DNA of 64,000 nucleotides from Escherichia coli (lineage in GTDB: Bacteria; Pseudomonadota; Gammaproteobacteria; Enterobacterales; Enterobacteriaceae). Below are positions 45,398 through 61,695 of the stretch, piece after piece. Numbering within the stretch: position 1 is the stretch's first letter; each line of letters begins with the position of its first letter. Under the pieces are notes generated by a model, which worked only from the letters and a program-made list of their open reading frames with translations, did not search any database and was not told the DNA's origin. The translations under genes and the position numbers were made by a program. The DNA is taken from assembly GCF_044324785.1 (NCBI RefSeq), contig NZ_CP172127.1. One strand, 5' to 3'.

Positions 45398-46297
45398 CAC
45401 TTTATCGAAATGGCCATCCATTCTTGCGCGGATGGCCTCTGCCAGCTGCTCATAGCGGCTGCGCAGCGGTGAGCCAGGACGATAAACCAGCCCAATAGTG
45501 CGGCGTGGTTCCGGCTTAATGCACGGCAGATAAACAACCCCATCGCGTTTGCGCTCCGGCGGCACAGCCAGCGCTGGCAATAAAGTGATCCCGCTACCTG
45601 CCGCCACCATGTTGCGCAGCGTCTCCAGGCTGGTCGCGCGGAAGTGTGTATCTTCATCTGCCCCGGCTTCAAAGCAGAAACCCATTGCCTGATCGCGCAA
45701 ACAGTGACCGTCTTCCAGCATCAGCAGTTTTTCCCCTGCCAGATCGGCCATCGGTACGCATTCGCGGTTCGCCCACGGGTGATCTTCATAGATAGCCAGC
45801 AACATTGGCTCATCAAACAACGGCACTTCAATGAATGCTTCGCTCTCTTTCACCAGCGCGAGGATCACGCAATCGAGTTTGCCGCTGTCCAGTTGCGCCA
45901 GTAACTGGTGGGTCTGTGCTTCATGCAGATACATTTCCAGCTTTGGAAAGGTCTGGTGCAGCATCGGGATAATATGCGGTAGCAGGTACGGCCCGACCGT
46001 GGGAATCAAACCAATATGCAGCGGCCCGGACATGGTCTCACCCTGCTGGCTTGCCATCTCTTTAAGGACTTTCACCTCACGCAGCACGGTACGCGCCTGA
46101 TCCACCAGCAGCATTCCCGCCTGGGTGAACAACACTTTACGGCTGGTCCGCTCCAGCAACATCACGCCCAGCTCATCTTCCAGCTTACGAATTTGCCCGC
46201 TAAGCGTCGGCTGGCTAACGTGGCAGGAGTCTGCCGCACGCCGAAAATGGCGGTGTTCAGCCAATGCCACCAGGTACTCAAGATCACGAATATTCAT
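45380..46297 (-). CDS. oxyR: LysR-family hydrogen peroxide-inducible regulator
   Basis: 305 aa from [44 protein letters not shown] (internal Met of ORF ending 46342). Confidence 0.97.
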
Positions 46298-46392
46298 TAT
46301 CCATCCTCCATCGCCACGATAGTTCATGGCGATAGGTAGCATAGCAATGAACGATTATCCCTATCAAGCATTCTGACTGATAATTGCTCACA
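46298..46392. promoter_or_regulatory. oxyR-oxyS divergent promoter / OxyR binding region
   Basis: Intergenic region between divergent oxyR and oxyS starts. Confidence 0.7.
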
Positions 46393-46509
46393 GAAACGGA
46401 GCGGCACCTCTTTTAACCCTTGAAGTCACTGCCCGTTTCGAGAGTTTCTCAACTCGAATAACTAAAGCCAACGTGAACTTTTGCGGATCTCCAGGATCCG
46501 CTTTTTTTT
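46393..46509 (+). ncRNA. oxyS: OxyS small regulatory RNA
   Basis: GAAACGGAGCGGCACCTCTTTTAACCCTTGAAGTCACTGCCCGTTTCGAGAGTTTCTCAACTCGAATAACTAAAGCCAACGTGAACTTTTGCGGATCTCCAGGATCCGC followed by T8 terminator. Confidence 0.92.
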
Positions 46510-46548
46510 ATTCTACAGGCCCACAGCAAGAGAGCCTGATAGTAACAG

Positions 46549-47832
46549 TTACTCAATCCGATCTTTGACAATAAAGAAGTAACACAGCGCCCCGGTGAAC
46601 GTCACACAGGCCGCGATAACCAGCGCCAGATTAAACGAGTGCGTGGTATCCACTACCCAACCGGTTACGATCGGAGCAAAGGAAGCAAAAACAAAACTGC
46701 CAAAGTTTTGAATCCCGGCGATGGAAGCCACTTTTGTTTCTGACACCATCACCTGCACCAGTCCCCATGCAGATGTTCCCGCGAAATGCACGCAGAACAG
46801 CGCCATTGAGATAAACGCTACCGCCTGGGCTGGCGAGGAGGATTGCACGACCAGCAACGTGCCTAATGCCGACATCATCAAACCGCAGACAATAGCCGTT
46901 TTACGCGTCTTCGCCAGGTCGTAGCCTTTTTTCGCCAGCCGATCGACAACAATACCGTTAACCCACATCCCAACCGCCGCCGCGAGGAAAGGAATCGCCG
47001 CCACCCAACCGGTTTTCGCCAGACTGAAACCTTGTTCGGCCTGCAAATAACCGGGCAACCACGCGATGTAGAGCCAGCCTGTATAGTTGACGCCAGAGAA
47101 ACCTAAAATCATCCCCCAGGTTGTCCGATGCTTAAACAGCGCCAGCCACTCGCTAAATTGTAATTGTGGACGCGGTTTAACCGGCGCGGAGAGATAGGTC
47201 CGTTCTTCGTCGGTCAGGACAAACTGCGCCCGGTTGCGATACCACGCGTACCAACAGATCCCAACCAGAATCCCCGCCACGCCGATGATGACGAACATTG
47301 CCCGCCAGCCCCATGCCAGCTGCATCAATACAAGAGCAGGAGGCGCAATAGCCTGACCGATAACGGTAGATGAGTTAAAAATCCCCAGCGCCGTGCCGCG
47401 TTCTTTTTGCGCATACCAGTCGGTGATCGACTTTACTCCCGCAGGCATAAATGGCGCTTCGCCAATACTCAAACCAATACGCATTAAAATAAAGTGGCTA
47501 AAAGAATTAACCATTCCTGTTAATGCCTGCATTAATGACCAGAATATTAAGCCTGCGCCTAAAACTATTCGTGGGCCAAAGCGGTCTAGCAAAATACCGG
47601 AAGGGAGTTGTGAAAAACCATAAGACAGAGAAAAGGCAGAAAGCAAAACGCCAAATTCTGTCGCCGATAATCCTAACTCGCCACGAATCGCTTCGCCTGC
47701 CACGCTCAATGACGAACGGTCGAGGAAATTAACGATCCCCGCCATAAATAATAAAACCAGGGTCACTGTCTGAATACGACGAATCCGTTGCGGTTTATTA
47801 CCCGCAACACTGGTTGACACATCAACGTCCAT
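46549..47832 (-). CDS. MFS transporter, anion:cation symporter type (DgoT/ExuT/GudP-like acid-sugar permease)
   Basis: 427 aa, about 12 predicted TM helices; GLFLDRFG-like motif (LLDRFGPR); immediately downstream of the dehydratase gene. Confidence 0.85.
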   Translation of the reverse strand: MDVDVSTSVAGNKPQRIRRIQTVTLVLLFMAGIVNFLDRSSLSVAGEAIRGELGLSATEFGVLLSAFSLSYGFSQLPSGILLDRFGPRIVLGAGLIFWSLMQALTGMVNSFSHFILMRIGLSIGEAPFMPAGVKSITDWYAQKERGTALGIFNSSTVIGQAIAPPALVLMQLAWGWRAMFVIIGVAGILVGICWYAWYRNRAQFVLTDEERTYLSAPVKPRPQLQFSEWLALFKHRTTWGMILGFSGVNYTGWLYIAWLPGYLQAEQGFSLAKTGWVAAIPFLAAAVGMWVNGIVVDRLAKKGYDLAKTRKTAIVCGLMMSALGTLLVVQSSSPAQAVAFISMALFCVHFAGTSAWGLVQVMVSETKVASIAGIQNFGSFVFASFAPIVTGWVVDTTHSFNLALVIAACVTFTGALCYFFIVKDRIE

Positions 47833-48888
47833 TTTTAGCTCCTTGAGCGGAATTAATCGATTTGATGACTATTCAGAAAATAATTAAGCGAACCGTTATT
47901 ACCAGTTCCACAATGTGCCATCTTCCAGTCGTGCGACGGGGAGATACGCCGGGTCATACGGATATTTCGCCGCCAGTTTCTCATCGAAAGAAATACCCAG
48001 CCCCGGTTCATCGCCTGGGTGCATATAACCTTCATCGAAGCGCCAGCTATGCGGGAAGACTTCAAGCATTTGTTCGGAATAGCCCATGTACTCCTGAACG
48101 CCAAAGTTTGGCACCCAGAGGTCAAAATGCAGCGCCGCCGCATGACAAACAGGCGATAAATCTGAAGGGCCATGCGAACCGGTACGTACCTGATAAAGCG
48201 ATGCAAAATCGGCAATCCGTCGCATCCCGGTAATGCCGCCTGCATGGGTAATCGTCGTGCGAATATAGTCAATCAGCTGCTCTTCGATTAACTGCTTGCA
48301 GTCCCAGATACTGTTAAACACTTCACCGACCGCAATCGGCGTCACAGTATGCTGGCGAATCAGACGAAAACATTCCTGGTTCTCGGCAGGCGTCGGATCT
48401 TCCATCCAGAACAGGCGGTAATCCTCAATGCTCTTCCCAAAGCGCGCCGCTTCGATAGGAGTCAGGCGATGGTGCATGTCATGCAACAGATGTTCGTTAA
48501 AACCGAACTTATTACGCACCGCTTCGAATAACTTCGGCGTAAAATCGAGATACTTTTCTGAAGACCACAACTGCTCTTCTGGCCACAGGCCTTTGGTTGC
48601 CGGTTCATACGCCAGTCCTTTGCCCTTCGCCAGGCCATAAGTGGTTTGCATACCCGGTACACCACACTGCACACGAATCGCCTTAAAGCCCATCTGCTGG
48701 TGCTTTGCATAGTCTTCAAGGACTTCATCAATCGTACGCCCGGTGGTGTGGCAATAAACCATCACGCCTTCACGAGAAGCACCACCAAGCAGTTGATACA
48801 ATGGCATATTTGCCGCTTTTGCTTTGATATCCCACAACGCCATATCAATGGCAGAAATGGCTGACATCGTGACGGGGCCACGTCGCCA

Positions 48889-48897
48889 GTAAGCACC
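48889..48897. repeat. IS1 target-site duplication (left copy) GTAAGCACC
   Basis: Identical 9 bp at 49666..49674 directly flanking the other IS1 end. Confidence 0.95.
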
Positions 48898-48952
48898 GGT
48901 GATGCTGCCAACTTACTGATTTAGTGTATGATGGTGTTTTTGAGGTGCTCCA

Positions 48953-49228
48953 GTGGCTTCTGTTTCTATCAGCTGTCCCTCCTGTTCAGCTACTGACGGG
49001 GTGGTGCGTAACGGCAAAAGCACCGCCGGACATCAGCGCTATCTCTGCTCTCACTGCCGTAAAACATGGCAACTGCAGTTCACTTACACCGCTTCTCAAC
49101 CCGGTACGCACCAGAAAATCATTGATATGGCCATGAATGGCGTTGGATGCCGGGCAACTGCCCGCATTATGGGCGTTGGCCTCAACACGATTTTACGTCA
49201 CTTAAAAAACTCAGGCCGCAGTCGGTAA
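48953..49228 (+). CDS. insA: IS1 InsA
   Basis: 91 aa [43 protein letters not shown]... zinc-finger/HTH protein. Confidence 0.95.
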
Positions 49229-49650
49229 CCTCGCGCATACAGCCGGGCAGTGACGTCATCGTCTGCGCGGAAATGGACGAACAGTGGGGCTATGTCGGGG
49301 CTAAATCGCGCCAGCGCTGGCTGTTTTACGCGTATGACAGTCTCCGGAAGACGGTTGTTGCGCACGTATTCGGTGAACGCACTATGGCGACGCTGGGGCG
49401 TCTTATGAGCCTGCTGTCACCCTTTGACGTGGTGATATGGATGACGGATGGCTGGCCGCTGTATGAATCCCGCCTGAAGGGAAAGCTGCACGTAATCAGC
49501 AAGCGATATACGCAGCGAATTGAGCGGCATAACCTGAATCTGAGGCAGCACCTGGCACGGCTGGGACGGAAGTCGCTGTCGTTTTCAAAATCGGTGGAGC
49601 TGCATGACAAAGTCATCGGGCATTATCTGAACATAAAACACTATCAATAA
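49147..49650 (+). CDS. insB: IS1 InsB frame (expressed as InsAB' transposase by -1 frameshift)
   Basis: 167 aa ORF overlapping insA 3' end; A6C slippery motif TTAAAAAACTC at about 49198. Confidence 0.93.
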
Positions 49651-49665
49651 GTTGGAGTCATTACC

Positions 49666-49674
49666 GTAAGCACC
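49666..49674. repeat. IS1 target-site duplication (right copy) GTAAGCACC
   Basis: Matches 48889..48897. Confidence 0.95.
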
Positions 49675-50269
49675 TTTATAAAAGAATTGCCAGATATCTT
49701 CGATACGGCTGGCATCGCGGCCAATTAATTGTGGACAAAGATGATCTTTCAGATAAGAAGCGACCGACAATTCGCGCCCATTTAACGTGGCATCTCCTAA
49801 TCCACAAAGTCCGCTTTCAGTGGTTATTTTAAGCGTAACGAAATTACGTCCTGGGCAAGTAACAAAAACATCTGCAGCAATAATTTTCATTATTGCAATC
49901 TCCTGTGTTGTAAATAGACGCTTCAAACTTAATTTTACGCCTACTACCATACAAGAGAGAAAGAGCGATTATTCAACCGTGATCACATTAAAAACAAAAA
50001 TTCCCACCGAGGAACAAGAATATCCTCAAATTTCATCCACACTATTAATTACTATTGTTAAAACAACACGTTAAATAATCACATAACAAATTCCTCTAAG
50101 GAAGAGAGTCATAACAATAACAAATGATAATCATATTTTACTTAATTCAATACGTATCGATATGTTTATTTTAAAAAGATTTTTCGGAATGAGAGATGAA
50201 AAGAAGATACACAAACAGGAAGAAATACGATTAATATTGGTCGCGGTAAGGGTAGCCGTTCCTCCCTTC

Positions 50270-50376
50270 CGCAACCCATTAACCCTTGAAGTCACAGTCT
50301 ATTTCAGGCATTTCTCAACTCAAAATAACGAAGGCCAATGTGAACTTTGTGGCTCTCCAGGATCCGCTTTGTTTTC
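50270..50376 (+). ncRNA. degenerate oxyS-like sequence (pseudo-oxyS, 3' two-thirds incl. terminator hairpin)
   Basis: AACCCTTGAAGTCAC...TTTCTCAACTC.AAATAAC.AAGGCCAATGTGAACTTTGTGGCTCTCCAGGATCCGCTTTGTTTT aligns to oxyS 46410..46509 at roughly 80 percent identity. Confidence 0.7.
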
Positions 50377-50378
50377 CA

Positions 50379-51857
50379 TCAAACAACGGAACTCAGCGCA
50401 CTGGCAACCTGTTTAAAGCGAGCAAACCGTCGCCTGAGCATGTGTGCTTTTTCTACATTCGGTTCAAGACGAATCACGTTGAGATGCGTGGCCTTCATGG
50501 CCTGTTTGAATCCAGAATAAGCCCCTCCTCCTACTGCCGCACACATTGCAGCCGCTCTACAACCTGACTGTTCAATATCGACAATTTCAAGAGGCATGTT
50601 GCTGGCATCACAAAACATCTGCATCCAGATTCTGGAATGCGTTGGCCCGCCAGAGAAACGAATCGTTTGCAATGACTTATCAATCTCAATAAGACGGTCC
50701 TGATGCAACAAATGAGAAAAGACAATGCCCTGATAAATCGCGTACACCAAATCTTCTCTTTTATGATGCCCACACAGCCCCAAAAATCCCCCGCTTAATG
50801 CCTCATGGTAATTCGAGCCAAACAACCACGGGAAAAAGAGAATATCATTCTGCTTCTCATACCCTCGTTCCACCCACTCATTAATCACCCGATAGCTGTC
50901 AGGAAGATCCGGTAAAAATTGCTGCAAGAACCATGTCAAATTACTGGCTGATGTAGGGCTTCCCTCATGGGCGAAAAATGTACCTGGAATGCTAAATTTC
51001 CCCCATACATAGGGATAATCAGAAGGAATAATGCGATCAAAGATACGCGTTGCAATTGACCAGGTGCCAGCAACCGCACTTAACGTTGTACTGTCATAGA
51101 TGCCAGAAGTGAGCGCCGCACCAACGACATCAAAAACACCACCAAAAACAGGCGTTCCGGCGAGAAGCCCACATTGGCTGGCTGCTTCAGATGTCACAAC
51201 CCCTGCTAAATCAGCGGAGCCAATAATATCGGGAACCTTACCCGCAACTTCCTTAATCTCAAATAGGCGAAAAAGTTCAGCATCATAAGCACTGGTATAT
51301 TGATTATAAAAATTACTGCCTGAAATATTGGTTTCTTCACAAGCCAGTTTGCCAGTAAGCCGTGAACGTATGTAATCATGAACCATCAAAATGGTTCCGA
51401 TGCGGCCATAATTGTCAGTCTCATGTTTTTTCAACCAATGCAATAGTGCTACAGGGTGCGATGGCCAGAGCTGTTGCAGACTACGGTGATAGCTTTCGCG
51501 GTCAATTCCTTGTTCTTTCCAGCTTGCAACCAGTTGTTGTGCGCGAGAATCAGAGGAAACAATGCCGTATCGTAAGGGCTTACCTTGCCGGTCGAGCAGG
51601 TACAAACCTTTACCATGAGCAGAAAAACTGATGCCATCAATCTGACTCGCAGTAATATTGTTCTCTGACATCGACAGTGAAATGACCTGGCACGTTACCT
51701 TCCATAACGCCTCCATGTCGCGTTCGCAAAAACCAGGACATGGGCTTAACAGAGGTAACACTTGCGAAGAGACACCTATTTCACGTCCTTCTGCCGTATA
51801 AATTCCCGCTTTGGTTTCTGTACCACCTAAATCGACACCAATAAAATACCGCTCCAT
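50379..51857 (-). CDS. FGGY-family carbohydrate kinase, L-xylulokinase (LyxK/SgbK)-like
   Basis: 492 aa; N-terminal GVDLGGT, conserved HEGSPTSASNLTWF, FFPWLFGSN, GGPTHSRIWMQMF blocks resembling E. coli LyxK. Confidence 0.85.
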   Translation of the reverse strand: MERYFIGVDLGGTETKAGIYTAEGREIGVSSQVLPLLSPCPGFCERDMEALWKVTCQVISLSMSENNITASQIDGISFSAHGKGLYLLDRQGKPLRYGIVSSDSRAQQLVASWKEQGIDRESYHRSLQQLWPSHPVALLHWLKKHETDNYGRIGTILMVHDYIRSRLTGKLACEETNISGSNFYNQYTSAYDAELFRLFEIKEVAGKVPDIIGSADLAGVVTSEAASQCGLLAGTPVFGGVFDVVGAALTSGIYDSTTLSAVAGTWSIATRIFDRIIPSDYPYVWGKFSIPGTFFAHEGSPTSASNLTWFLQQFLPDLPDSYRVINEWVERGYEKQNDILFFPWLFGSNYHEALSGGFLGLCGHHKREDLVYAIYQGIVFSHLLHQDRLIEIDKSLQTIRFSGGPTHSRIWMQMFCDASNMPLEIVDIEQSGCRAAAMCAAVGGGAYSGFKQAMKATHLNVIRLEPNVEKAHMLRRRFARFKQVASALSSVV

Positions 51858-51873
51858 GATCCCTCCTTAGTTT

Positions 51874-52737
51874 CTAAATATTATCCCAGCCGGCAAGGCG
51901 CATTTTCTCTTCAATCCATTGACGTGCATGAATAATTTCTAATAGAGGTTCCGTCGCTTTTTCTGTCCACATTTCTATCAGAAACGTTCCGCGATAATTA
52001 AGATTACGCAGAATCTTAAATAATTTAATAAAATCTACACACCCTTCACCAAAAGGAACGTCACGAAATTGCCCTGGAGAATCAGGCGTTACTGGGTACG
52101 TATCTTTAAGATGGATTGCGGCAATTCGATCAATCCCCTTTACCAGCTCACTTTCCAGTTCATTACCCCATGCGGTCAGATTGCCAACATCCGGATAAAC
52201 GGTAAACCAAGGGGAATTAATTTTTGTATCCAGGACTTTCCATTTACTAATAGAATTAATAAATGGCGTATCCATGATTTCTACAGCACACATAACTTGT
52301 GCCGCTGCGGCCTGTTCAGCTGTCCAGGCCATCGCATCTTCAAACCAGGCGATAGTTTCTTCATTCTGCGGCTCATAATAAACGTCATAGCCTGCCAGTT
52401 GGATTGTTCGAATCCCCAAATCCTGCGCCAGGCGTAACGCCTTCAACATAATCGTACGCGCCTGCTGACGAGTATCTCTATCATGGCTACCAAATGGAAA
52501 ACGCCGGTGAGCAGACAGGCACATTGTCGGAATACGGATCCCCGTTTGCTGAATGGCGCTAATAAGCTCCATACGCTCGGTGAGCGACCAGTCCAGGCGG
52601 GCGAGTCGTTCATCATTCTCATCTACCGACATCTCAACAAAATCAAAACCGCAAGATTTAGCCAGGGCTAGTTTCTCTACCCAACTGGTATTCCTGGGTA
52701 GCGCTTTTTCATAAATACCTAACGGGTGGCGTCGCAT
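51874..52737 (-). CDS. L-ribulose-5-phosphate 3-epimerase (UlaE/SgbU family, TIM-barrel)
   Basis: 287 aa; PLGIYEKALP...GFDFVEMSVDE.DERL.RLDWS...MCLSAHRRFP.GS...IQLAGYDVYY motifs nearly colinear with UlaE. Confidence 0.88.
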   Translation of the reverse strand: MRRHPLGIYEKALPRNTSWVEKLALAKSCGFDFVEMSVDENDERLARLDWSLTERMELISAIQQTGIRIPTMCLSAHRRFPFGSHDRDTRQQARTIMLKALRLAQDLGIRTIQLAGYDVYYEPQNEETIAWFEDAMAWTAEQAAAAQVMCAVEIMDTPFINSISKWKVLDTKINSPWFTVYPDVGNLTAWGNELESELVKGIDRIAAIHLKDTYPVTPDSPGQFRDVPFGEGCVDFIKLFKILRNLNYRGTFLIEMWTEKATEPLLEIIHARQWIEEKMRLAGWDNI

Positions 52738-53783
52738 TATTTTCCCTCACGAGTGATCAATTGTTGTTGAAAGATTTTCCGGCTCTTATTCATGTCACGC
52801 TGCAACTGCCATTTTTGTTTGATGAATTTAAATGCCAATGCGGCGATCAATGTGATCCCCCATACCGCCAGATTGAAATGCAAACTAATTCCCAACAGAC
52901 TAAGGCCGGTAGCAATAACCTGAAGCACAAGTAAGGCACAAAAAACATGACTGACTTTACCCGCCCCACCGAATGGATCTGTGCCTCCCAATACAATTGC
53001 AAGAACCGTCAAGAGCAAATAGGAATCGCCATAGCCCATACGCGCCGAATTAAATCGCGCGAGCATAATAAGACCTGCTAATACACACAACATGCTGGAT
53101 ATAGCATATATAGCAATTAATACGCGGTCGGTGCGAATACCGCTAAACCATGTGGCGTTAATATTACTGCCACACATATAAATCGTTTTTCCCGTACGGG
53201 TTTTGCCGAGGAACAGAGCTAAAGCAACGGTGGTGACGATAAAAATCATCATCGGTACTGGGATCCCCATGATAACTTCAGACCCAATACTGCGGACTAC
53301 TGGTGGCATACCACTTAAAGCTGCCCCCTTAGTCAGGTAAATACCGATACCACTAATAATGGTCATGCTACCCAATGTGACCAAAATAGGGTGAGCGCCT
53401 ATATGAGAAATAATTAACCCAGTAATAGCTCCAATGATGATGGCAATAAGCATCGCCCCGACAATAGCCAGGAAGAGCCAAAACAACTGGCTACCTGTAG
53501 ATGCATCTGCGGGTACATATTGAATCAACACCCAGGCCATAAACAGGCTGGTCAGATTCGCAGTACCGATGATTGCCAGATTAAGCCCCCCGCTCAACAT
53601 CGGTATAAACATCGCAAACGTGAGCAACCCAAGCTCTGGCAATTGAAATGCAATGCTCAGAAAAGTATTGTCGGTGAAAAAACGCCCCGGCATTGCCAGA
53701 CTAAATAACACCACCGCAATAAAACATATTGATAATAAGCCTGAACTGGTACCATCTAGTGGAAAAAATATCCGCTTGTTCAT
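52737..53783 (-). CDS. sugar ABC transporter permease (RbsC/YjfF-like)
   Basis: Polytopic membrane protein; start taken at MNKRIFF (ORF extends to 53813, overlapping upstream permease). Confidence 0.8.
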   Translation of the reverse strand: MNKRIFFPLDGTSSGLLSICFIAVVLFSLAMPGRFFTDNTFLSIAFQLPELGLLTFAMFIPMLSGGLNLAIIGTANLTSLFMAWVLIQYVPADASTGSQLFWLFLAIVGAMLIAIIIGAITGLIISHIGAHPILVTLGSMTIISGIGIYLTKGAALSGMPPVVRSIGSEVIMGIPVPMMIFIVTTVALALFLGKTRTGKTIYMCGSNINATWFSGIRTDRVLIAIYAISSMLCVLAGLIMLARFNSARMGYGDSYLLLTVLAIVLGGTDPFGGAGKVSHVFCALLVLQVIATGLSLLGISLHFNLAVWGITLIAALAFKFIKQKWQLQRDMNKSRKIFQQQLITREGK

Positions 53784-53796
53784 TTCGATCCTCCCG

Positions 53797-54789
53797 TTAG
53801 ACGAAACCAACATCAGTTTCTTTACGCTTTTTGTAATGGGTCACACAAATCGCCGAGACAATAACCACCCCAATAACGATATTGACGAAATAACTCGAGA
53901 CACCAATCAAATTAAGGCCGTTTTTAAGAATACCGATAAGAAATACGCCCATAAGCGTACCAATGACCGTACCACGTCCGCCTGATAAACTGGCACCGCC
54001 CAATACCGCTGCAGCCAGCACATCCAACTCTCCGCCAACCAATGCATTCGGCACAACTTCACTCATACGGTAAGCTTGCAGCATTCCACCAATTGCTGCA
54101 GCGGCACCAAGATAACCGTAAGCAAACAGATAAATTAGCGACACCCGAATCCCAATACGTCTTGCTGATTCGGTATTCCCTCCCACGGCATAAAGCTGAC
54201 GCCCAATATGGGTTTTGTTCATTATCACCCACGTCAGAAATGCCATTCCCAGCATAACCACTAACGGTAATCCGATCTGGTAATCTTCTCCGCCAAATTC
54301 AAAACTCAGGAAAGAACGCTGCGTAATCCACCAATCCGGTAAATCGTAAATACTGTGACCATTAGTCAACCACATCAACATACCGAACAGTAACGACTGC
54401 ATACTAATCGTAATGATGATAGAAACGACATTAAGGTAATAAATAAGAATAGCGTTTATCAAACCAAAAATGATGCCAAAAAAAACAGCAAACACCAGGC
54501 AGAAAAATGGATTTGATAGCGTTTCATTAAGCAGTAACGACGCCACAACATATTGCACAACCGAAGCTACTGCTGCAAAAGAGATATCAATTCCGCCAGT
54601 AACCAATACGACAAATAATCCGAGGGCGAAAATACCCGTTACGGCATAACTCTCCGAGAGATCGAGCAAGTTCTGTATTGATAAAAACTCATCGCTCATG
54701 ATGGAAAAAAATACCAGCATGAGAACAATGACCCATCCTAACCAAGCTTCGACTGAACGAGGAAACCGCAGCCGCATAAAGCTAACCAT
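53797..54789 (-). CDS. sugar ABC transporter permease (RbsC/YtfT-like)
   Basis: 330 aa polytopic membrane protein; start overlaps ATPase stop. Confidence 0.8.
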   Translation of the reverse strand: MVSFMRLRFPRSVEAWLGWVIVLMLVFFSIMSDEFLSIQNLLDLSESYAVTGIFALGLFVVLVTGGIDISFAAVASVVQYVVASLLLNETLSNPFFCLVFAVFFGIIFGLINAILIYYLNVVSIIITISMQSLLFGMLMWLTNGHSIYDLPDWWITQRSFLSFEFGGEDYQIGLPLVVMLGMAFLTWVIMNKTHIGRQLYAVGGNTESARRIGIRVSLIYLFAYGYLGAAAAIGGMLQAYRMSEVVPNALVGGELDVLAAAVLGGASLSGGRGTVIGTLMGVFLIGILKNGLNLIGVSSYFVNIVIGVVIVSAICVTHYKKRKETDVGFV

Positions 54790-56299
54790 TAATCACCTCC
54801 GCCAACTGCTGCTCGGTATAATTCGAAGGCAACAGCTCATGAATAATCTTTCCGCGCTTCATATGAAAAATACGATCGCAGTTATAATAAGCTTCTGGTG
54901 CTTCATCAGTAATTAATATCACTGAAATACCCACACCTGAAAGCCGATGAATAAGCTGGTAAATACTATCTTTTGCGCCAATATCTACACCTACCGTTGG
55001 CGCATCCAGAATTAAAACCTTAGGTCGTGTTAAAATCCATTTAGCCAGGACAACCTTTTGTTGATTGCCACCAGATAGCGTTGAAAGTGGATTATTTGGA
55101 TCGGTGACCTTAATATCCAAATCCTGGATCCACTCCTTGACTAAGGTTTCTTTTCGATTTTCATCAATAAACCCCGATGGCGTCTTTAAACGATCCAGAA
55201 TCGAGAGCACCATATTATCGCTGATAGATTGGGGTAATACGGCCCCCAGTGTCAGGCGATCTTCTGAAACATATGCTATTCCCAGTTTTACCGCATGCGT
55301 GTTGTCTTTAATTGTAACGGGCTTACCTTCAAGATAAATATCACCACTATCTGCTCGAGTAATACCGAAAAGACTCAATGCTAATTCGGTTCTCCCCGCA
55401 CCAAGTAAACCACACAATCCCAGAACCTCGCCTTGGTGTAGTTTTAGAGATACATCTTCAAATTGCCCTTTTCTGCATAATTTTTTTAGTTCAAGAACTA
55501 CTTTACCTTCAACGCTATTTGGTAGTTTTTTCTGGTGGACTATAGTTTTTCCGGTCATTAACTCAGTAATATCGCCTGGAGAAAGTTGATTGGCAGCCCA
55601 CGTTCCAATTATCTCTCCATCACGGATGACCGTAATTCGGTCTGAGATTTCCTTAACTTCATCAAGGCGGTGGCTAACAAAAACTACGGTAATATTTTTA
55701 TCGCGTAAGTAATTCACTGTGCGTAGTAATTGATTAACTTCAGTGCGCGTCAATGACGCCGTTGGCTCGTCCATGATGACTAACCGGGCATCGGCAATCA
55801 GAGCCCGGCAAATAGCGACCTGTTGGCGTTGTGCAATCGGCAAATGTTGTACTAACGCATCAGGATCGAGATTGAATTCCAGTTCCTGAATTATTTTCTG
55901 TGATACATCTCGAAGTTGTTTTTTTCTGTGCAGCCCTAAATATCCCTTCAGGTTGTATTCAAAAGCGATATTTTCAGCCACAGAAAGATTTGGGAATAAA
56001 GAAAGATCCTGATATATCACCTGAATACCCAGTTCCCGAGCTTTATCAGGAGAAAGACGAGTCCAGGACTTACCATCTATAATAATTTCACTTCCCGAAT
56101 CAGGAACATAAACACCACACAGCGTTTTGATCAGAGTACTTTTACCACACCCATTCGCACCAGCAAGACAATGAACCTCACCTTTATTTAAGGTAAGATT
56201 GATATTTTTTAGAGCCCTATGGCCACCGAAACTTTTCGTTAGTGACCTTAGCGTCACTAATGGTTGCTCCGCATTCTTCTCTATAATATGAGGCATCAT
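54782..56299 (-). CDS. sugar ABC transporter ATP-binding protein (duplicated NBD, RbsA/YtfR-like)
   Basis: 505 aa; Walker A GANGCGKST in first NBD, LSGG signature in the second (LSGGNQQK), two NBDs. Confidence 0.88.
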   Translation of the reverse strand: MMPHIIEKNAEQPLVTLRSLTKSFGGHRALKNINLTLNKGEVHCLAGANGCGKSTLIKTLCGVYVPDSGSEIIIDGKSWTRLSPDKARELGIQVIYQDLSLFPNLSVAENIAFEYNLKGYLGLHRKKQLRDVSQKIIQELEFNLDPDALVQHLPIAQRQQVAICRALIADARLVIMDEPTASLTRTEVNQLLRTVNYLRDKNITVVFVSHRLDEVKEISDRITVIRDGEIIGTWAANQLSPGDITELMTGKTIVHQKKLPNSVEGKVVLELKKLCRKGQFEDVSLKLHQGEVLGLCGLLGAGRTELALSLFGITRADSGDIYLEGKPVTIKDNTHAVKLGIAYVSEDRLTLGAVLPQSISDNMVLSILDRLKTPSGFIDENRKETLVKEWIQDLDIKVTDPNNPLSTLSGGNQQKVVLAKWILTRPKVLILDAPTVGVDIGAKDSIYQLIHRLSGVGISVILITDEAPEAYYNCDRIFHMKRGKIIHELLPSNYTEQQLAEVING

Positions 56300-56362
56300 A
56301 ATATTCCTGAATACGACTAAAGGAATTCCGGGTCAAATTTGACCCGGTGATTTACGGTAAAA

Positions 56363-57367
56363 TTACAAGCCTAACTTCACTAAATGTCGTGTATTTTCAA
56401 GATCGAGCTTTTCTGGATTATCACTATAAATAGTGTTGTTATTAACCTTGATCTCGCCCATATCACCGATTTTTACACCGTCTTTAATAGGTTCACCGTT
56501 CATCATTGCCGTCGCAACCTGGACAAAAACCTTACCCGCAATCATAGGGTTTGAAATATATCCCCCATCAATGGCGCCTTTTTCGAGTAGCTTAATTCCC
56601 TGACCTGGAGTGAAGGTTCCAAAAACGCAAATTGCGTCATTTTTCTTCCGCTTATCAATAGCACGCCCCGCACCAATTGGTCCTTGTGAACCAAATGACA
56701 TAATGCCTTTAAGATCTTTATATTTAGACATTAAATCGTTCGTCGTGCGCATTGAATCATCCACCGATTCAGCAACACCAAAACGATCTTCAACCAACGT
56801 CATATTTGGATAATGTTCTTTTTGATAAGCAATCGCGGCATTGGCCCAGTCATTTACCAAAGGCACGGTCAGACTGCCGACAAACATGGCGTATTTACCT
56901 TCTTCGCCCATGCACTTCGCCATATCTTTCATATGATTGGCACCCATTGTCTGGGTATTTAACAACTCAAAATCCCAATCTGCATTTTTTTGATCTGGTG
57001 ATTCGTGGGTAATAACTTTAATACCGGCTTCTTGTGCACGCTTAAGTACAGGTTCAAGAACCTTTGCATCGTTAGGAACAACCCCAATAACATCCACTTT
57101 TCGTGCAATTAAATCTTCAATCGCCCGAACCTGTTCAGCTGGATCTGCCGTTGTAGGGCCGACCTGCCATGCATCAACCCCCAATAGTTTTCCTTCATCT
57201 TTAATGCCTTGTTCCATCACATTAAACCAGGGAATGCCACCGACTTTTACTACTACCCCCATCGTAAAAGGTTTATTCGCTTTTTGTGATGTTACAGTCT
57301 GATCAGCCCATGCAGCAGTGGAAGATAATACGGTAGCAATAAGGCAGGGTAAGATTAATTTTTTCAT
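56363..57367 (-). CDS. periplasmic sugar-binding protein (PBP type I, RbsB/YtfQ-like)
   Basis: 334 aa; signal peptide MKKLILPCLIATVLSSTAAWA; first gene of ABC operon. Confidence 0.82.
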   Translation of the reverse strand: MKKLILPCLIATVLSSTAAWADQTVTSQKANKPFTMGVVVKVGGIPWFNVMEQGIKDEGKLLGVDAWQVGPTTADPAEQVRAIEDLIARKVDVIGVVPNDAKVLEPVLKRAQEAGIKVITHESPDQKNADWDFELLNTQTMGANHMKDMAKCMGEEGKYAMFVGSLTVPLVNDWANAAIAYQKEHYPNMTLVEDRFGVAESVDDSMRTTNDLMSKYKDLKGIMSFGSQGPIGAGRAIDKRKKNDAICVFGTFTPGQGIKLLEKGAIDGGYISNPMIAGKVFVQVATAMMNGEPIKDGVKIGDMGEIKVNNNTIYSDNPEKLDLENTRHLVKLGL

Positions 57368-57390
57368 CGTAATTTCCTTAAGAAATAGTT

Positions 57391-57430
57391 CAGGTGTCAG
57401 GAAAACTCGATATAATATCGACCTGACTAT
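57391..57430. promoter_or_regulatory. palindromic candidate operator/promoter upstream of ABC operon
   Basis: Perfect 15-bp palindrome TCGATATAATATCGA flanked by GTCAGG / CCTGAC half-sites, 30-70 bp upstream of SBP start; contains TATAAT. Confidence 0.4.
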
Positions 57431-57489
57431 TTATATAATTTATAATCCCTTAGGCATTGATTAATAATTTAGACAATAAATAATGCCTA

Positions 57490-58299
57490 TTATTTATCAA
57501 CCTCCACAATGTTTAATTGTGGAAATTGTGTTCGATACCGAGTATCTGTACAAACATTAGTCACCAGAATATCGATTTCATCCAGCGTGCATATTTTACT
57601 AAATGCATACTGTTCAAACTTACTGGAGTCGACCAGCAATATTTTTTGTCCTGACACCTGAAGCATCACCTGTTTAAGTCTGGCATTAATTTCACTGCCA
57701 TCGCGGACACCATTCCCCAGATTCAACCCCTGGCATGAAAAGAAAAAACTGTTGATTTGAAAATTTCGGATCGCCCCCTCTGCAACCGGGCCATGAAAAT
57801 CATCATGTCGCTCAGAATACTCACCACCGATACCAATAATTCGAACTCGATCACGGCAAGCCAACGCCTGAATTATCCGTAATGAATTTGTAACTACAGT
57901 AACATCTATATCGGGAATTTGACGAGCTAAAAACCAACAAGTACTACTGTTATCCATTAAAATACAATCACCAGGGTGAATAAATTGCAATGCGGCCTTC
58001 GCAATTCTGGCTTTTATATCAGGATTTTCTTCAGTCCGTTTACGGAATGATTCCGCACGATCGATACTATTATCTTGCCACGCATTATCGGCGAGCATAA
58101 CCGGAGCGCTATCAGATGAATCCAGAGCGACCGCGCCACCAAAGCTACGGATTAACTTTTTGTTGCGCTCCAGTACCGTTAAATCCCGACGAATTGTCTC
58201 AGGAGACGCTTTAAATAATCGTGATAATTCTGTTACCTGTACAGCACCTTGTTTTTGTACATGTGCGCATATCATTTTATGGCGCTCTGCCTGCAACAT
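57490..58299 (-). CDS. DeoR-family transcriptional regulator (sugar-phosphate sensing type)
   Basis: 269 aa; N-terminal HTH (VTELSRLFKASPETIRRDLTVLE) and C-terminal DeoR-C sugar-phosphate binding domain. Confidence 0.85.
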   Translation of the reverse strand: MLQAERHKMICAHVQKQGAVQVTELSRLFKASPETIRRDLTVLERNKKLIRSFGGAVALDSSDSAPVMLADNAWQDNSIDRAESFRKRTEENPDIKARIAKAALQFIHPGDCILMDNSSTCWFLARQIPDIDVTVVTNSLRIIQALACRDRVRIIGIGGEYSERHDDFHGPVAEGAIRNFQINSFFFSCQGLNLGNGVRDGSEINARLKQVMLQVSGQKILLVDSSKFEQYAFSKICTLDEIDILVTNVCTDTRYRTQFPQLNIVEVDK

Positions 58300-58752
58300 A
58301 GTATCGGTCCGTTATTATCAAATTAGCATGCTTATATAATTAACTGTTCCCTCATAAAATAAAGTGATAGGAATCAAGATTCATTTTATAAATATAATCG
58401 CAAACAGAAATGGTGATCTTTACCACAAATTAAATTGAGAATATTCTACTATTGGACATTTTTTTGAGATATACGTCACTAAATAAGCTTTATTCTGTCA
58501 CCTGACGAAAAATTTAAATGCAAAAACAAAAATAATCGGGCATAGCAATCTCTTCCATTCATGACCGAATACGCCCGAATAAAACCGTTTACGCCCACTT
58601 ACCCTCTTTCATTGCCTTCTTACATGCCTTGAATATTTTACATTTCTTATATTCAGCGTAATTTAGGCAACATAATTTACGAGCAAAAATAGCCAAAACC
58701 CAAAAGTTAAAGTTTATTTATATAATACATACAGATTATCGTGGAGTTAAAA

Positions 58753-59435
58753 ATGGATACGCTAAAGGAAAAAGTTCTTGCTGCGAATTTATCACTACCC
58801 CTTCATCAGTTAGTGACGTTTACCTGGGGAAATGTTAGCGGTATTGATCGCGAAAAAGGTGTCATGGTTATTAAACCTTCTGGGGTCGAATACAGCCAAA
58901 TGGGCAGGTGGTAGTGGATTTACAAAGTGGTGAAGTTATTGATGGACACAGGAAACCCTCTTCAGACACAGATACTCATCTGGCGCTATACCGTGCTTTC
59001 CCGGATATTGGAGGTATCGTTCATACCCATTCCCGACACGCCACAATATGGGCTCAGGCCGGAAAAGATCTCACGGCCTTTGGGACAACCCATGCAGATT
59101 ATTTCTACGGCACTATCCCCTGTACACGCCCCATGAAGGATGACGAAATTAATGGACAATATGAATATGAAACGGGGCGAGTGATTATTGAAACGTTCAG
59201 GCAACGAGAAATATCTCCCGCTGACATTCCGGCTGTTTTAGTAAACAGTCATGGCCCCTTTGCCTGGGGAACTGATCCCGCGAACGCCGTGCATAACGCC
59301 GTTGTACTTGAAGAAATCGCCTATATGAATCTCTTTACACAACAGCTACACCCCCATCTTACGGCTATTCAACAGCCTCTACTGGATAAGCATTTTTTAC
59401 GCAAGCATGGTGCCAATGCTTATTACGGGCAGTAA
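58753..59435 (+). pseudogene. L-ribulose-5-phosphate 4-epimerase (AraD/SgbE/UlaF class II aldolase family), apparent frameshift
   Basis: Frame 1 [51 protein letters not shown] then stop at 58910..58912; continues in another frame [21 protein letters not shown]...[14 protein letters not shown]...[18 protein letters not shown]. Confidence 0.8.
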
Positions 59436-59484
59436 CCCTCTAAGCATGGCCTGGCGTTTTGCCAGGCCACGAATCGCCCAGGAC

Positions 59485-60858
59485 TTACCCCAACCGCGCC
59501 CTTGCAAAAGCAATCGCCTGCGCCACCTGCTGCGGTGAGACGCCGCCTTTTGCAGCACGCTTGTCGAGGCACGATTGCAGCGACAGAATCGGATAGACAT
59601 CTTCGCCAATCACCTGGCTGAATTTCTGCAACTCACTGAGCGGCAGATCTTCCAGCGGTTTGCCCTGACGAATGGCTTCCACCACCGCTTCACCAACAAT
59701 ATGGTGCGCCTCGCGGAACGGTACGCCTTTCGCCACCAGGTAATCCGCCAGTTCAGTGGCGTTCGCATACCCCTGCTGCGCCGCTTCCTGGCAACGTGGA
59801 CATTTCACCTGAATGCCGTCCAGCACCAGCGCCGCCATATGCAAGCAGTCCAGCCAGGTATCGAGCGCGTCGAACAGACCTTCTTTGTCTTCCTGCATAT
59901 CTTTGTTGTAAGCCAGCGGCAAACCTTTCAGCGTCATCATCATGCCGGTTAACGCCCCCTGCACCCGACCGCATTTACCGCGAATCAGCTCCAGCGCATC
60001 CGGGTTTTTCTTCTGCGGCATTAATGATGAACCTGAAGTCACGCGGTCAGAAAGCTCCACAAATCCCGCTTCGCCGGTGTTAAAGAAAATCAGATCTTCA
60101 GCAAAACGCGACAGATGCACCATGCCGATAGCGGCAGCAGAAAGCAGTTCCAGCACATGATCACGGTCAGAAACGCTGTCGAGACTGTTACGGGTCGCCG
60201 AAGCAAAGCCCAGCCAGCCTGCTAACTGTTCACGGTCGATTTCATAGGCCGTTCCCGCCAGTGCGCCACAGCCTAACGGGCTGACATCCAGACGCTTAAG
60301 CGCGTCCTGCAAACGGCTTTCATCACGCGCCAGCATCTCAACGTAGGCCAGGCACCAGTGCGCGAAAGTCACCGGTTGAGCGCGTTGCAGGTGGGTGTAA
60401 CCTGGCATTACCGCGTCCTGATTGTTTTGTGCGGTTTCCACCAGCGCCGATTGCAGCTGCCGGTTAGCCGTCAGTAACTCGCTAACGGTATCTTTGCACC
60501 ACAGTTTCAGGTCAGTCGCGACCTGGTCATTACGGCTACGCCCGGTGTGCAGTTTTTTGCCTAACTGACCCACTTTGTCGATCAATTTGCCTTCCACCCA
60601 GCTATGGATATCTTCGGCGTCGCTTTCAAGGATTTGTTGTGGCCTGGCGCGAACATCTTCCAGCAGCACGTTCAGCGCCTCTTCCAGTTGCGCCTGTTCT
60701 TCTGCGGTCAACACACCGACCGTTACCAGGGCTTTGGACCAGGCCACAGAGCCAACAATATCCTGCTCCGCCAGACGGTAATCAAAGCGCAGTGAGTCGT
60801 TGAATTGTTTGAACCGTTGATCTGCTGCCTGGGTAAAACGCCCGCCCCAAAGTGCCAT
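59485..60858 (-). CDS. argH: argininosuccinate lyase
   Basis: 457 aa [44 protein letters not shown]... Confidence 0.97.
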
Positions 60859-60918
60859 AACTCTGTTTCCTTATTTTGAAATTCAATGCCGGAAAGCTGC
60901 GCCTCCGGCCAACAAAAC

Positions 60919-61695
60919 TTAAGCTAAAATCCGCGTACCCATCGGCATACCGTTAAACAGTGCCGGAAGCTGTTCCGCATGACGCCAGGAGGCGATATCC
61001 ACCGGGCGGCCCAGCGTGCGTGCAGCATCCAGCGCCGCGTTCACTTTCACTATCATGCCGTCAGTAATAATGCCCTGCTCAATCAGTTGTTCTGCTTTCG
61101 CGGCGGTCATTTCGGCAATGCGTTGCCCTTTGCCGTCGAGAATGCCACTGACGTCGGAGAGCAAAATCAGATCCGCGCCCAGCGTTGCCGCCAGCGCCGT
61201 TGCCGCCTGATCGGCATTGACGTTCATCAGTTGCCCTTCGTCTGTTACGCCAATGGAGCTGACCACCGGTAGATAACCGTTCTCCAGCAAGGAGTTGATA
61301 AGCTTAGGCGAACCTGGCTGCGCCAGTCCAACATGGCCTAACTCTTCATCAAGCTGGGTCACTTTGACGCTGTCGCCGTCACCGAGAAACAAACCTACGG
61401 CCGCAATCTGATGTTTCTTCGCCCATGCCAGCAGGGTTTTATTTGCCGTTCCCGCCAGTGCTCCGGTGATAATGTCAATCTGATCAGCAGGCGTCACCCG
61501 CAGGCCGTTTTTCTTTTTCACCGGCAGATTCAGCCCTTTCATCAGCTCATCCACCACGCAACCGCCGCCGTGCACAATCACCAGCGGACGCTGATGTGAC
61601 ACACGATAATTCACCAGTGCACTAAACAGACGTTCCAGCGCCTCTTCACTATCCAGCAGTACGCCGCCCAGTTTGATAATTAATGGATTCATCAT
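60919..61695 (-). CDS. argB: acetylglutamate kinase
   Basis: 258 aa from [24 protein letters not shown] (internal Met of ORF ending 61728). Confidence 0.95.

What the first reader, a model, noticed from the sequence alone, without database searches (positions are those of the whole stretch)
50270..50376. Degenerate second copy of the oxyS sRNA marking the junction between the two island modules
About 105 bp at 50270..50376 align with the 3' two-thirds of bona fide oxyS (46393..46509), including the terminator hairpin, at roughly 80 percent identity and in the same orientation, but without the OxyR-controlled promoter. It sits exactly at the 3' end of the kinase operon. A divergent oxyS fragment at an island boundary suggests the island was acquired or rearranged by recombination anchored in oxyS, possibly from a relative whose oxyS neighbours these sugar genes. 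It could also still serve as a convergent terminator or give rise to an sRNA variant.
Basis: seen in the sequence. Interest (0 to 1): 0.6.

Follow-up and report, generated by a model that had tools for sequence, protein, structure and literature searches.

The report
Decayed extra copy of oxyS
A second oxyS-like stretch really is there, but it is a dead, mutating leftover of an oxyS gene that once sat next to a sugar-utilisation operon, so it records how this island was built and is not a working RNA gene or terminator.

Summary
Window 50279-50375 aligns with oxyS 46413-46509 in the same orientation at 81/98 identity (score 107; best shuffle 25). Rfam's OxyS model matches 50246-50368 at 41 bits (threshold 75).

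It is a relic. It has no OxyR site and no sigma-70-like promoter. Its fold is no better than shuffled sequence. The terminator hairpin has weakened from -12.4 to -5.8, -3.2 or -2.3 kcal/mol depending on the allele, and the T-run is interrupted. Between two E. coli alleles it differs at 10/153 sites. That matches flanking non-coding DNA, whereas the real oxyS differs at 0/117. It also carries 23 private changes at sites identical in E. coli and four Citrobacter oxyS genes.

The context explains it. In Citrobacter and Atlantibacter the same sugar operon (argH-araD-DeoR-ABC-epimerase-kinase) directly abuts the single oxyS. The relic holds that position in E. coli, cut off from oxyR by the MFS-manD module. 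It occurs only in the 145 of 5,426 complete E. coli genomes that carry the kinase module.

The terminator and sRNA-variant ideas are not supported. The finding is ordinary and of low interest.

The parts
46393..46509 (+). Bona fide oxyS sRNA gene with intact terminator (hairpin 46483-46501, T8)
   Evidence: Rfam RF00035 139.5 bits, full length. Identical to K-12 oxyS. MFE -32.9 kcal/mol, z -2.8. Terminator found by the scan. 0/117 differences between alleles.
46298..46392 (.). oxyR-oxyS divergent promoter region with the OxyR binding site
   Evidence: 14/16 match to ATAG-N7-CTAT-N7-ATAG-N7-CTAT at 46319-46355. Nearly invariant in Citrobacter and Atlantibacter.
46549..49890 (-). Module A: MFS transporter (46549-47832) and manD (47899-49890). 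In this strain manD is split by IS1 (48898-49665), which is flanked by a 9-bp duplication GTAAGCACC.
   Evidence: ORFs. RefSeq annotation of matching E. coli loci. IS1 limits. Module A is present in 1,869 of 5,426 complete E. coli genomes.
49891..50211 (.). manD upstream region shared with genomes that have module A only. Identity to those genomes falls from 98% to about 55-75% beyond roughly 50017.
   Evidence: blastn and sliding identity against L002.
50226..50278 (+). Probable 5' part of the relic: a -10-like TAATAT (50232-50237), a former +1 near 50246, and a diverged 5' stem with a 12-14 nt insertion
   Evidence: Collinear with E. coli and Citrobacter oxyS in MAFFT and cmscan alignments. 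Not significant alone (p about 0.07). No -35 and no OxyR site.
50279..50375 (+). Firmly homologous part of the oxyS relic: stem-loop a loop, stem-loop b, linker, decayed terminator hairpin 50349-50367, and interrupted T-run TTTGTTTT at 50368-50375
   Evidence: 81/98 identity to 46413-46509. Hairpin -5.8 kcal/mol against -12.4. Not called terminator-like. 10 substitutions between alleles within 50226-50378.
50376..50388 (+). Remnant of the spacer that follows oxyS in K-12 and Citrobacter (CCATCAAACAAC against GCCATAAAAAAGC). It now overlaps the last codons and the stop of the kinase.
   Evidence: K-12-type genomes align out to window 50383. Alignment A2.
50379..51857 (-). FGGY-family carbohydrate kinase, last gene of module B. 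It is unusually divergent from relatives.
   Evidence: ORF. 68-70% aa identity to Citrobacter and Atlantibacter, while neighbouring genes are 87-91%. No relatives between 70% and 98% identity in 5.8 billion proteins.
51874..59435 (-). Rest of module B: L-ribulose-5-P 3-epimerase, two ABC permeases, ATPase, binding protein, DeoR regulator (all on the - strand), and araD (58754-59435, + strand, frameshifted here)
   Evidence: ORFs. RefSeq annotation. Same gene order as in C. amalonaticus. GC about 43% against 52-57% in the flanks.
59447..59469 (.). Hairpin between araD and argH, homologous to the argH terminator that lies between argH and oxyS in K-12
   Evidence: Alignment A3. Repeat analysis in Citrobacter and K-12.
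59485..60858 (-). argH, the core gene on the far side of the island
   Evidence: ORF. Annotation of matching loci.

Best explanation
The feature is a non-functional relic (pseudogene) of an oxyS gene. In the lineage that supplied the sugar operon (module B), oxyS lay directly after the kinase gene, as it still does in Citrobacter and Atlantibacter. A rearrangement placed the MFS-manD module, together with the currently functional oxyS, between that copy and oxyR. The old copy was severed from its -35 element and OxyR binding site. No longer expressed or selected, it has drifted since. It gained about 20% substitutions, an insertion in stem-loop a, mismatches in the terminator stem and a G in the T-run. 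Shown: the homology, the loss of the promoter and OxyR site, the loss of fold and terminator strength, divergence at the rate of neighbouring non-coding DNA, the strict linkage to module B, and the synteny in relatives. Inferred: the order of events, and whether the composite was assembled in E. coli or imported already assembled from a diverged relative by recombination in manD-upstream and near argH.
For: Homology: 81/98 identity, score 107 against a shuffle maximum of 25; OxyS model, 41 bits, E 8e-7. Loss of expression signals: one search found no promoter-like or terminator-like site in 49900-50500, while one search found the real oxyS terminator with the same scan. One search gave an OxyR motif match of 9/16, equal to shuffles, against 14/16 at the real promoter. 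Loss of structure: one search gave a relic MFE of -25.4 (z -0.27), against -32.9 (z -2.8) for oxyS. One search gave terminator hairpins of -12.2 to -14.6 kcal/mol in E. coli, four Citrobacter and Atlantibacter, against -5.8, -3.2 and -2.3 in three relic alleles. No constraint: searches gave 10/153 differences between window and E400634 alleles in the relic, against 0/117 in oxyS (Fisher p 0.006). Flanking intergenic DNA differs at 46/788 (p 0.71) and module B 4-fold sites at 37/1172. One search found at least five relic haplotypes in 13 sequences, with hits in the loop-a CCC and in both hairpin arms and none compensatory. One search counted 23 relic-private changes at sites identical in E. coli and four Citrobacter oxyS. 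Context: searches show kinase-oxyS-oxyR adjacency and the identical module B gene order in Citrobacter and Atlantibacter. Searches show that exactly the genomes carrying module B (145-146 of 5,426) have a second oxyS-like place. Genomes with module A only do not have one: this was checked directly in L002, and the genome-wide counts imply it for the rest.
Against: No transcript data could be consulted, so weak transcription from the retained -10-like TAATAT, or read-through, cannot be excluded. The two OxyS loops known to pair with fhlA (my recollection of Argaman and Altuvia 2000) are intact in the window allele (TTAACCCTTG and CUCCAGG). That is also what mere ancestry would give. A sub-threshold Rfam score is weak evidence by itself. 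Atlantibacter's presumably functional oxyS scores only 30.9 bits, and Citrobacter's 90.6-bit oxyS also shows 5 non-standard pairs, against 7 in the relic. No donor genome was found, so how much of the divergence is decay and how much was already present in the source is unknown.
Confidence: 0.82

Rival explanations
1. The copy still works as the intrinsic terminator of the kinase operon, or as a bidirectional terminator insulating module B from manD-MFS.
For: It lies 3 nt from the kinase stop codon, and no other hairpin lies between the kinase and manD. In Citrobacter a separate terminator hairpin sits between the kinase and oxyS. That hairpin is missing in E. coli, so something else would have to terminate.
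Against: Read on the kinase (minus) strand, the hairpin is not in the MFE structure and is followed by AAAGUUCAC, not a U-run. The scan finds nothing terminator-like on either strand but does find the real oxyS terminator. Natural alleles carry further stem-breaking changes that bring it to -3.2 and -2.3 kcal/mol, which is not expected for a maintained terminator.
Confidence: 0.06
2. The copy is an expressed OxyR-independent OxyS paralogue, or a decoy that keeps the target-pairing loops.
For: The longest identical blocks cover the stem-loop a loop (17 nt) and the terminator loop plus its 3' arm (16 nt). A -10-like TAATAT lies 8 nt upstream of the aligned +1.
Against: There is no -35, no OxyR site and no promoter-like hit. 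The fold is no better than shuffles. The terminator is weak and the T-run interrupted. The E400634 allele changes the loop-a CCC to CCG and destroys the hairpin. The divergence rate is neutral.
Confidence: 0.04
3. Alternative history, with the same non-functional outcome. The relic is E. coli's own oxyS, duplicated in place when module A inserted next to an ancestral module B, and it has simply decayed for a very long time. It did not arrive from another lineage.
For: Module B lies at the same site, bounded by the same argH-terminator hairpin, in Citrobacter and E. coli. The non-kinase genes are 75-81% identical in nucleotides, not far below core genes at 84-87%. The relic shares more states with E. 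coli oxyS than with Citrobacter oxyS where the two differ (6 against 3).
Against: The relic's roughly 17-24% private divergence is several times the 6.5% seen between the deepest relic alleles, and exceeds E. coli-wide 4-fold-site divergence at this locus (3-11%). Only 2.7% of complete genomes carry it, against 34% with module A. The kinase next to it is as far from Citrobacter as from Serratia. The distal manD-upstream DNA next to it is also strongly diverged from module-A-only genomes. Module B has low GC.
Confidence: 0.25
4. The similarity is due to chance or to low-complexity, AT-rich sequence.
For: None beyond the AT-rich surroundings (GC 0.39 in 50000-50499).
Against: The score of 107 is about 45 sd above shuffles. 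The covariance model hits independently at E 8e-7. blastn gives E 7e-17 against every E. coli oxyS.
Confidence: 0.01

Closest known systems
OxyS sRNA (Rfam RF00035), the OxyR-induced Hfq-binding regulator encoded between oxyR and argH
   Same: Clear sequence homology over at least 98 nt. Same orientation relative to the neighbouring genes as oxyS in Citrobacter. The loop sequences and linker are retained.
   Different: It scores 41 bits against a threshold of 75. It has no OxyR site or -35, a 12-14 nt insertion in stem-loop a, non-pairing substitutions, a weak hairpin and an interrupted T-run. It evolves neutrally. It is a pseudogene, not a family member in the functional sense.
Citrobacter / Atlantibacter locus argH-araD-DeoR-ABC-epimerase-kinase-oxyS-oxyR
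   Same: Identical gene order for module B, and the same kinase-then-convergent-oxyS adjacency.
   Different: Those genomes have one intact oxyS with its OxyR-controlled promoter, plus a terminator hairpin between kinase and oxyS. In E. coli the adjacent copy is dead, the hairpin is gone, the kinase is a much more divergent version, and module A plus a second, functional oxyS intervene before oxyR.
Partial duplicates of tRNA, tmRNA or sRNA gene 3' ends flanking integrase-borne islands and prophages (att sites; for example the ryeA/ryeB insertion hot spot in Salmonella, from my own knowledge)
   Same: A direct partial repeat of a small RNA gene brackets an accessory module (module A lies between oxyS and the relic).
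   Different: No integrase or phage genes lie in either module. The repeat is about 100-150 nt at only 83% identity, not a short near-identical att core. The relic covers the whole gene from the -10 element, not just its 3' end.
Gene remnants left by homology-facilitated illegitimate recombination or by nested island assembly
   Same: One side of the foreign segment ends in conserved core DNA (argH and its terminator). The other side ends inside a regulatory region with no extended homology, leaving a truncated gene copy.
   Different: The mechanism is inferred only. Identity between (b)-type and (c)-type genomes fades gradually over 50017-50211 rather than ending sharply. The junction may therefore have formed in another lineage and been imported whole.

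Membership tests
OxyS sRNA (RF00035) | Covariance-model score at or above the curated gathering threshold (75 bits) | tested here: not met
   41.1 bits at 50246-50368, against 139.5 bits for the real gene and 90.6 for Citrobacter. Caveat: Atlantibacter's apparently intact oxyS also scores below threshold (30.9 bits).
OxyS sRNA (RF00035) | Detectable sequence homology to oxyS | tested here: met
   81/98 identity, score 107 against a shuffle maximum of 25. blastn E 7e-17 to all E. coli oxyS.
OxyS sRNA (RF00035) | OxyR-dependent promoter shared divergently with oxyR (OxyR tetramer site plus -35/-10) | tested here: not met
   The OxyR motif match is 9/16, equal to shuffles, against 14/16 at 46319-46355. 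No sigma-70-like site in 49900-50500. oxyR is 4 kb away beyond module A.
OxyS sRNA (RF00035) | Stable three-stem-loop fold | tested here: not met
   The MFE of -25.4 kcal/mol has z -0.27, and 75/200 shuffles fold as well. The predicted structure is not the OxyS one. 7 of 26 model pairs are non-standard. This pair count alone is inconclusive, because Citrobacter shows 5.
OxyS sRNA (RF00035) | Strong Rho-independent terminator (GC-rich stem plus uninterrupted U-run, also the Hfq-binding 3' end) | tested here: not met
   -5.8, -3.2 and -2.3 kcal/mol in three alleles, against -12.2 to -14.6 in six functional orthologues. The T-run is TTTGTTTT. Not detected by the terminator scan, unlike the real one.
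OxyS sRNA (RF00035) | Purifying selection within the species | tested here: not met
   10/153 differences against 0/117 in oxyS between the same two genomes (p 0.006). This is indistinguishable from flanking intergenic DNA.
OxyS sRNA (RF00035) | Expression induced by peroxide, and Hfq binding | not testable with these tools
   No transcriptome or binding data are available here.
Integrase-type att duplication of a small RNA gene | Tyrosine or serine integrase gene inside the bracketed element | tested here: not met
   Module A contains only the MFS transporter and manD (plus a strain-specific IS1). Module B contains only sugar-catabolism and transport genes.
Integrase-type att duplication of a small RNA gene | Short, near-identical direct repeats (att core) at both ends | tested here: not met
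   The repeats are about 98 nt at 82.7% identity. The longest identical run is 17 nt.
Intrinsic terminator of the kinase operon | Stable hairpin followed by a U-run on the transcribed (minus) strand | tested here: not met
   The minus-strand fold does not use the hairpin, and the downstream sequence is AAAGUUCAC. No terminator-like site on either strand.

The most novel reading that the evidence does not exclude
The relic is still transcribed at a low level, from its retained -10-like element or by read-through. Because the window allele keeps both OxyS target-pairing loops, it would act as an OxyR-independent OxyS-like regulator or as a decoy for OxyS targets or Hfq in ST38-type E. coli.
Probability: 0.03. 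Interest if true: 0.6.

Novelty: new member of a known kind. Interest (0 to 1): 0.2.

Why it matters
The relic is a small molecular fossil. It shows that the sugar operon now found in about 3% of complete E. coli genomes once abutted oxyS, as it still does in Citrobacter and Atlantibacter. It also shows that the oxyS-argH gap is a repeatedly used insertion site, built up by nested events. Three states coexist in E. coli: empty, MFS-manD only, and both modules. In practice it is a caution for sRNA annotation and for probe or primer design, because ST38-type strains carry a second oxyS-like sequence. It also gives a convenient neutral marker for dating the rearrangement. It does not point to a new regulator or mechanism.

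Tried and rejected
- **Donor search by protein.** The genome-contig scan with the kinase and the 5.8-billion-protein search found nothing between 70% and 98% identity outside E. coli.
- **Donor search by DNA.** A metagenome scan with a relic-specific 21-mer gave 5 contigs, all ordinary E. coli with both modules.
- **Search for a genome with module B but no module A.** Such a genome would show an intact oxyS beside the E. coli-type kinase. The look-up with the epimerase returned only the composite arrangement.
- **Crossover tract in argH.** I looked for a donor-like stretch at the 3' end of argH. argH is E. coli-like throughout, so this gave no answer.
- **Stem pair counts on a MAFFT alignment.** Discarded, because indels shift the columns and even perfect Citrobacter hairpins score badly. 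I used cmscan alignments and per-sequence folding instead.
- **5' extension of homology.** Tested for significance and only suggestive (p about 0.07).
- **Literature.** Two full-text searches found no description of a second oxyS copy or of this island.
- **Rejected readings.** Chance similarity, an integrase att duplication, a functional terminator and a functional sRNA.

Full report

Yes. The window is an E. coli chromosome segment running rrnB-murI-btuB-trmA-fabR-sthA-oxyR-oxyS ... argH-argB-argC. Rfam places oxyS at 46393-46502 on the + strand (139.5 bits, full length). It is identical to K-12 oxyS.

A local alignment of this gene against 50230-50400 pairs 46413-46509 with 50279-50375 in the same orientation. 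Identity is 81 of 98 columns (82.7%). The score is 107, against 17.7 +/- 2.0 (maximum 25) for 500 shuffles. The OxyS covariance model finds the same place independently: 50246-50368, 41.1 bits, E 8e-7, below the 75-bit gathering score. The T-run ends at 50375 and the FGGY-kinase stop codon occupies 50379-50381. All factual parts of the finding hold.

**How far does the copy extend?**

Multiple alignment with E. coli, four Citrobacter and one Atlantibacter oxyS loci and the cmscan alignment suggest collinear similarity further upstream:
- a -10-like TAATAT at 50232-50237;
- a former +1 near 50246;
- a badly diverged 5' stem with a 12-14 nt insertion.

This 5' part is not significant on its own (p about 0.07), so I call it probable. 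On the 3' side, about 12 nt after the T-run (CCATCAAACAAC) resemble the spacer that follows oxyS in K-12 and Citrobacter (GCCATAAAAAAGC). K-12-type genomes align out to window 50383. Upstream of about 50226 nothing resembles the oxyS promoter.

**What surrounds it?**

Between oxyS and argH (59485-60858) the window carries two modules.
- Module A is an MFS transporter (46549-47832) and manD (47899-49890). In this strain manD is split by an IS1 (48898-49665).
- Module B runs from the FGGY kinase (50379-51857) through an L-ribulose-5-P 3-epimerase, two ABC permeases, an ATPase, a binding protein and a DeoR regulator to araD (58754-59435). Sources.

Complete E. coli genomes show three states:
- the K-12 state, with oxyS about 54 bp from argH;
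- module A only (L002);
- both modules.

Module A is in 1,869 of 5,426 genomes. Module B is in 145-146.

A sensitive blastn with the relic region finds 5,571 places in 5,425 genomes, with at most two per genome. So 146 genomes have two oxyS-like places, which matches the 145-146 genomes that carry module B. The one module-A-only locus I examined directly has only the real oxyS. The relic therefore belongs to module B, not to module A.

**Relatives**

A scan of one genome per prokaryotic species with the kinase returned 21 loci. In Citrobacter sp. MGH106, Citrobacter sp. Cu233, two C. amalonaticus genomes and Atlantibacter sp. RC6, an oxyS homologue lies about 65 nt after the kinase stop on the opposite strand and is followed by oxyR. 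In Citrobacter sp. MGH106 it scores 90.6 bits for Rfam OxyS.

A 21-kb C. amalonaticus locus shows argC-argB-argH-araD-DeoR-SBP-ATPase-permease-permease-epimerase-kinase-[oxyS]-oxyR-sthA-fabR-yijD-trmA-btuB-murI. This is exactly E. coli module B in the same chromosomal slot, with a single oxyS. The E. coli relic therefore sits where oxyS sits relative to this operon in those genera.

**Is the relic functional?**

Several independent tests say no.

1. *Expression signals.* There is no sigma-70-like promoter in 49900-50500. The best match to the OxyR tetramer motif upstream of the relic is 9/16. That is no better than shuffles (87% reach it), against 14/16 at the real promoter.

2. *Fold.* oxyS folds into its three stem-loops at -32.9 kcal/mol (z -2.8). 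The relic reaches -25.4 (z -0.27; 75 of 200 shuffles fold as well) and adopts a different structure.

3. *Terminator.* The hairpin is -12.2 to -14.6 kcal/mol with T8-T9 in E. coli, four Citrobacter and Atlantibacter. It is -5.8, -3.2 and -2.3 in three relic alleles, and the T-run is TTTGTTTT. The same scan that finds the real terminator finds nothing at the relic on either strand. On the kinase strand the hairpin is not used in the MFE fold and no U-run follows it.

4. *Selection.* Between the window and strain E400634:

| Region | Differences |
|---|---|
| relic (50226-50378) | 10/153 |
| oxyS | 0/117 |
| flanking intergenic DNA | 46/788 |
| module B 4-fold degenerate sites | 37/1172 |

The relic differs significantly from oxyS (Fisher p 0.006). 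It does not differ from the flanking intergenic DNA (p 0.71). Its rate is at least that of the 4-fold sites (p 0.057). Across 13 sequences there are at least five haplotypes. They include CCC>CCG in the loop-a block and non-compensated changes in both hairpin arms.

5. *Private changes.* At sites where E. coli and all four Citrobacter oxyS agree, the relic carries 23 private changes. A working orthologue would be expected to keep such sites.

Two caveats apply. Sub-threshold Rfam scores and counts of non-standard pairs are weak evidence by themselves. Atlantibacter's apparently intact oxyS scores 30.9 bits. Citrobacter's 90.6-bit gene has 5 non-standard pairs, against 7 in the relic.

**History (inferred)**

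Where E. coli and Citrobacter oxyS differ, the relic agrees with E. coli at 6 sites and with Citrobacter at 3. It also has the E. coli-type terminator loop. Its source was therefore on the Escherichia side, not Citrobacter itself.

Its private divergence (17-24%) is several times the 6.5% separating the deepest relic alleles, and exceeds E. coli-wide 4-fold divergence at this locus (3-11%). Either the copy died well before E. coli diversified, or it came from a diverged lineage.

Several observations favour the second possibility:
- only 2.7% of genomes carry it;
- module B has 43% GC, against 52-57% in the flanks;
- the adjacent kinase is only 68-70% identical to the Citrobacter and Atlantibacter kinases, as far as from Serratia, while the other module B proteins are 87-91% identical, with a sharp drop in nucleotide identity at the kinase start;
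- the distal manD-upstream DNA (about 50017-50211) next to the relic is only 55-75% identical to module-A-only genomes, although manD itself is 98% identical.

The last point suggests that the composite manD-upstream/relic/module B arrangement was formed elsewhere and then imported by recombination in the proximal manD upstream region and near argH. No donor was found in species-representative genomes, in 5.8 billion proteins or in metagenomes. No E. coli assembly shows module B without module A. argH shows no donor-like tract. The direction and place of the event therefore remain open.

There is no integrase in either module, and the repeats are long and divergent. This is not an att-type duplication.

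**Comparison with what is known**

The thing is homologous to OxyS. It fails every functional criterion of the family that could be tested. It is best filed as an sRNA pseudogene, a junction scar of nested island assembly. Two full-text searches found no prior description, but the kind is familiar.

**Verdict**

The evolutionary reading is largely supported. The functional readings are not supported. Interest is low (0.2).

Noticed in passing
window 50379-51857 (compare L005, L009, L004, L032): The FGGY kinase is an outlier within module B. It is 68-70% aa (66% nt) identical to the Citrobacter and Atlantibacter kinases, about as far as from Serratia or Yersinia. The adjacent epimerase, permeases and ATPase are 87-91% aa (77-81% nt) identical. 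Nucleotide identity drops sharply at the kinase start (about 51900). No relatives between 70% and 98% identity exist in the protein database. This suggests replacement of the kinase by a distant version, or strongly accelerated evolution.
   Followed up: partly
L032 2347-2384 and 11508-11544; L003 1748-1785; window 59447-59469: In C. amalonaticus, module B is flanked by direct repeats (33 of 37 aligned columns identical) of an intrinsic terminator, GCCTGGC-N5-GCCAGGC-TTTTTTA(T)GGCA. The same hairpin occurs once in K-12 between argH and oxyS. E. coli genomes with both modules keep only the argH-side copy. The repeat may mark how module B was inserted or can be lost.
   Followed up: partly
window 48898-49665: IS1 is inserted in manD, flanked by a 9-bp target duplication GTAAGCACC (48889-48897 and 49666-49674). 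It splits a gene that is intact (1215 nt) in L001, L002 and L025. In N3 (L026) manD is full length but annotated with an internal stop. In strain Nord58 a different IS1 insertion disrupts the kinase instead.
   Followed up: yes
window 58754-59435 (gap at about 58907): araD carries a 10-bp deletion relative to strain N3 and other genomes (682 nt against 693 nt). The deletion shifts the frame. With the IS1 in manD, this makes two inactivated sugar genes in this strain's island.
   Followed up: yes
window 50017-50211 versus L002 7940-8138: The distal part of the manD upstream region is only about 55-75% identical between genomes with both modules and genomes with module A alone. manD and the first ~125 nt upstream (49891 to about 50016) are 92-100% identical. 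L002 instead has a 172-bp REP-containing stretch (8139-8310) before argH that is absent from the window.
   Followed up: partly
L009 7539-7583: Atlantibacter sp. RC6 has an oxyS-like gene with a conserved OxyR-site region and a strong terminator. Its 5' two-thirds are so diverged that Rfam OxyS matches only model positions 65-109 (30.9 bits). The Rfam model therefore under-detects distant but probably functional oxyS genes.
   Followed up: no
window 45380-61000 versus L026: The window is almost identical to E. coli strain N3 (NZ_CP031609.1) across the whole locus. N3 is the only one of 5,426 complete genomes whose MFS gene matches at 99% or more; all the others are about 97%. The oxyR/MFS alleles of this lineage are therefore unusual among sequenced E. 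coli.
   Followed up: no
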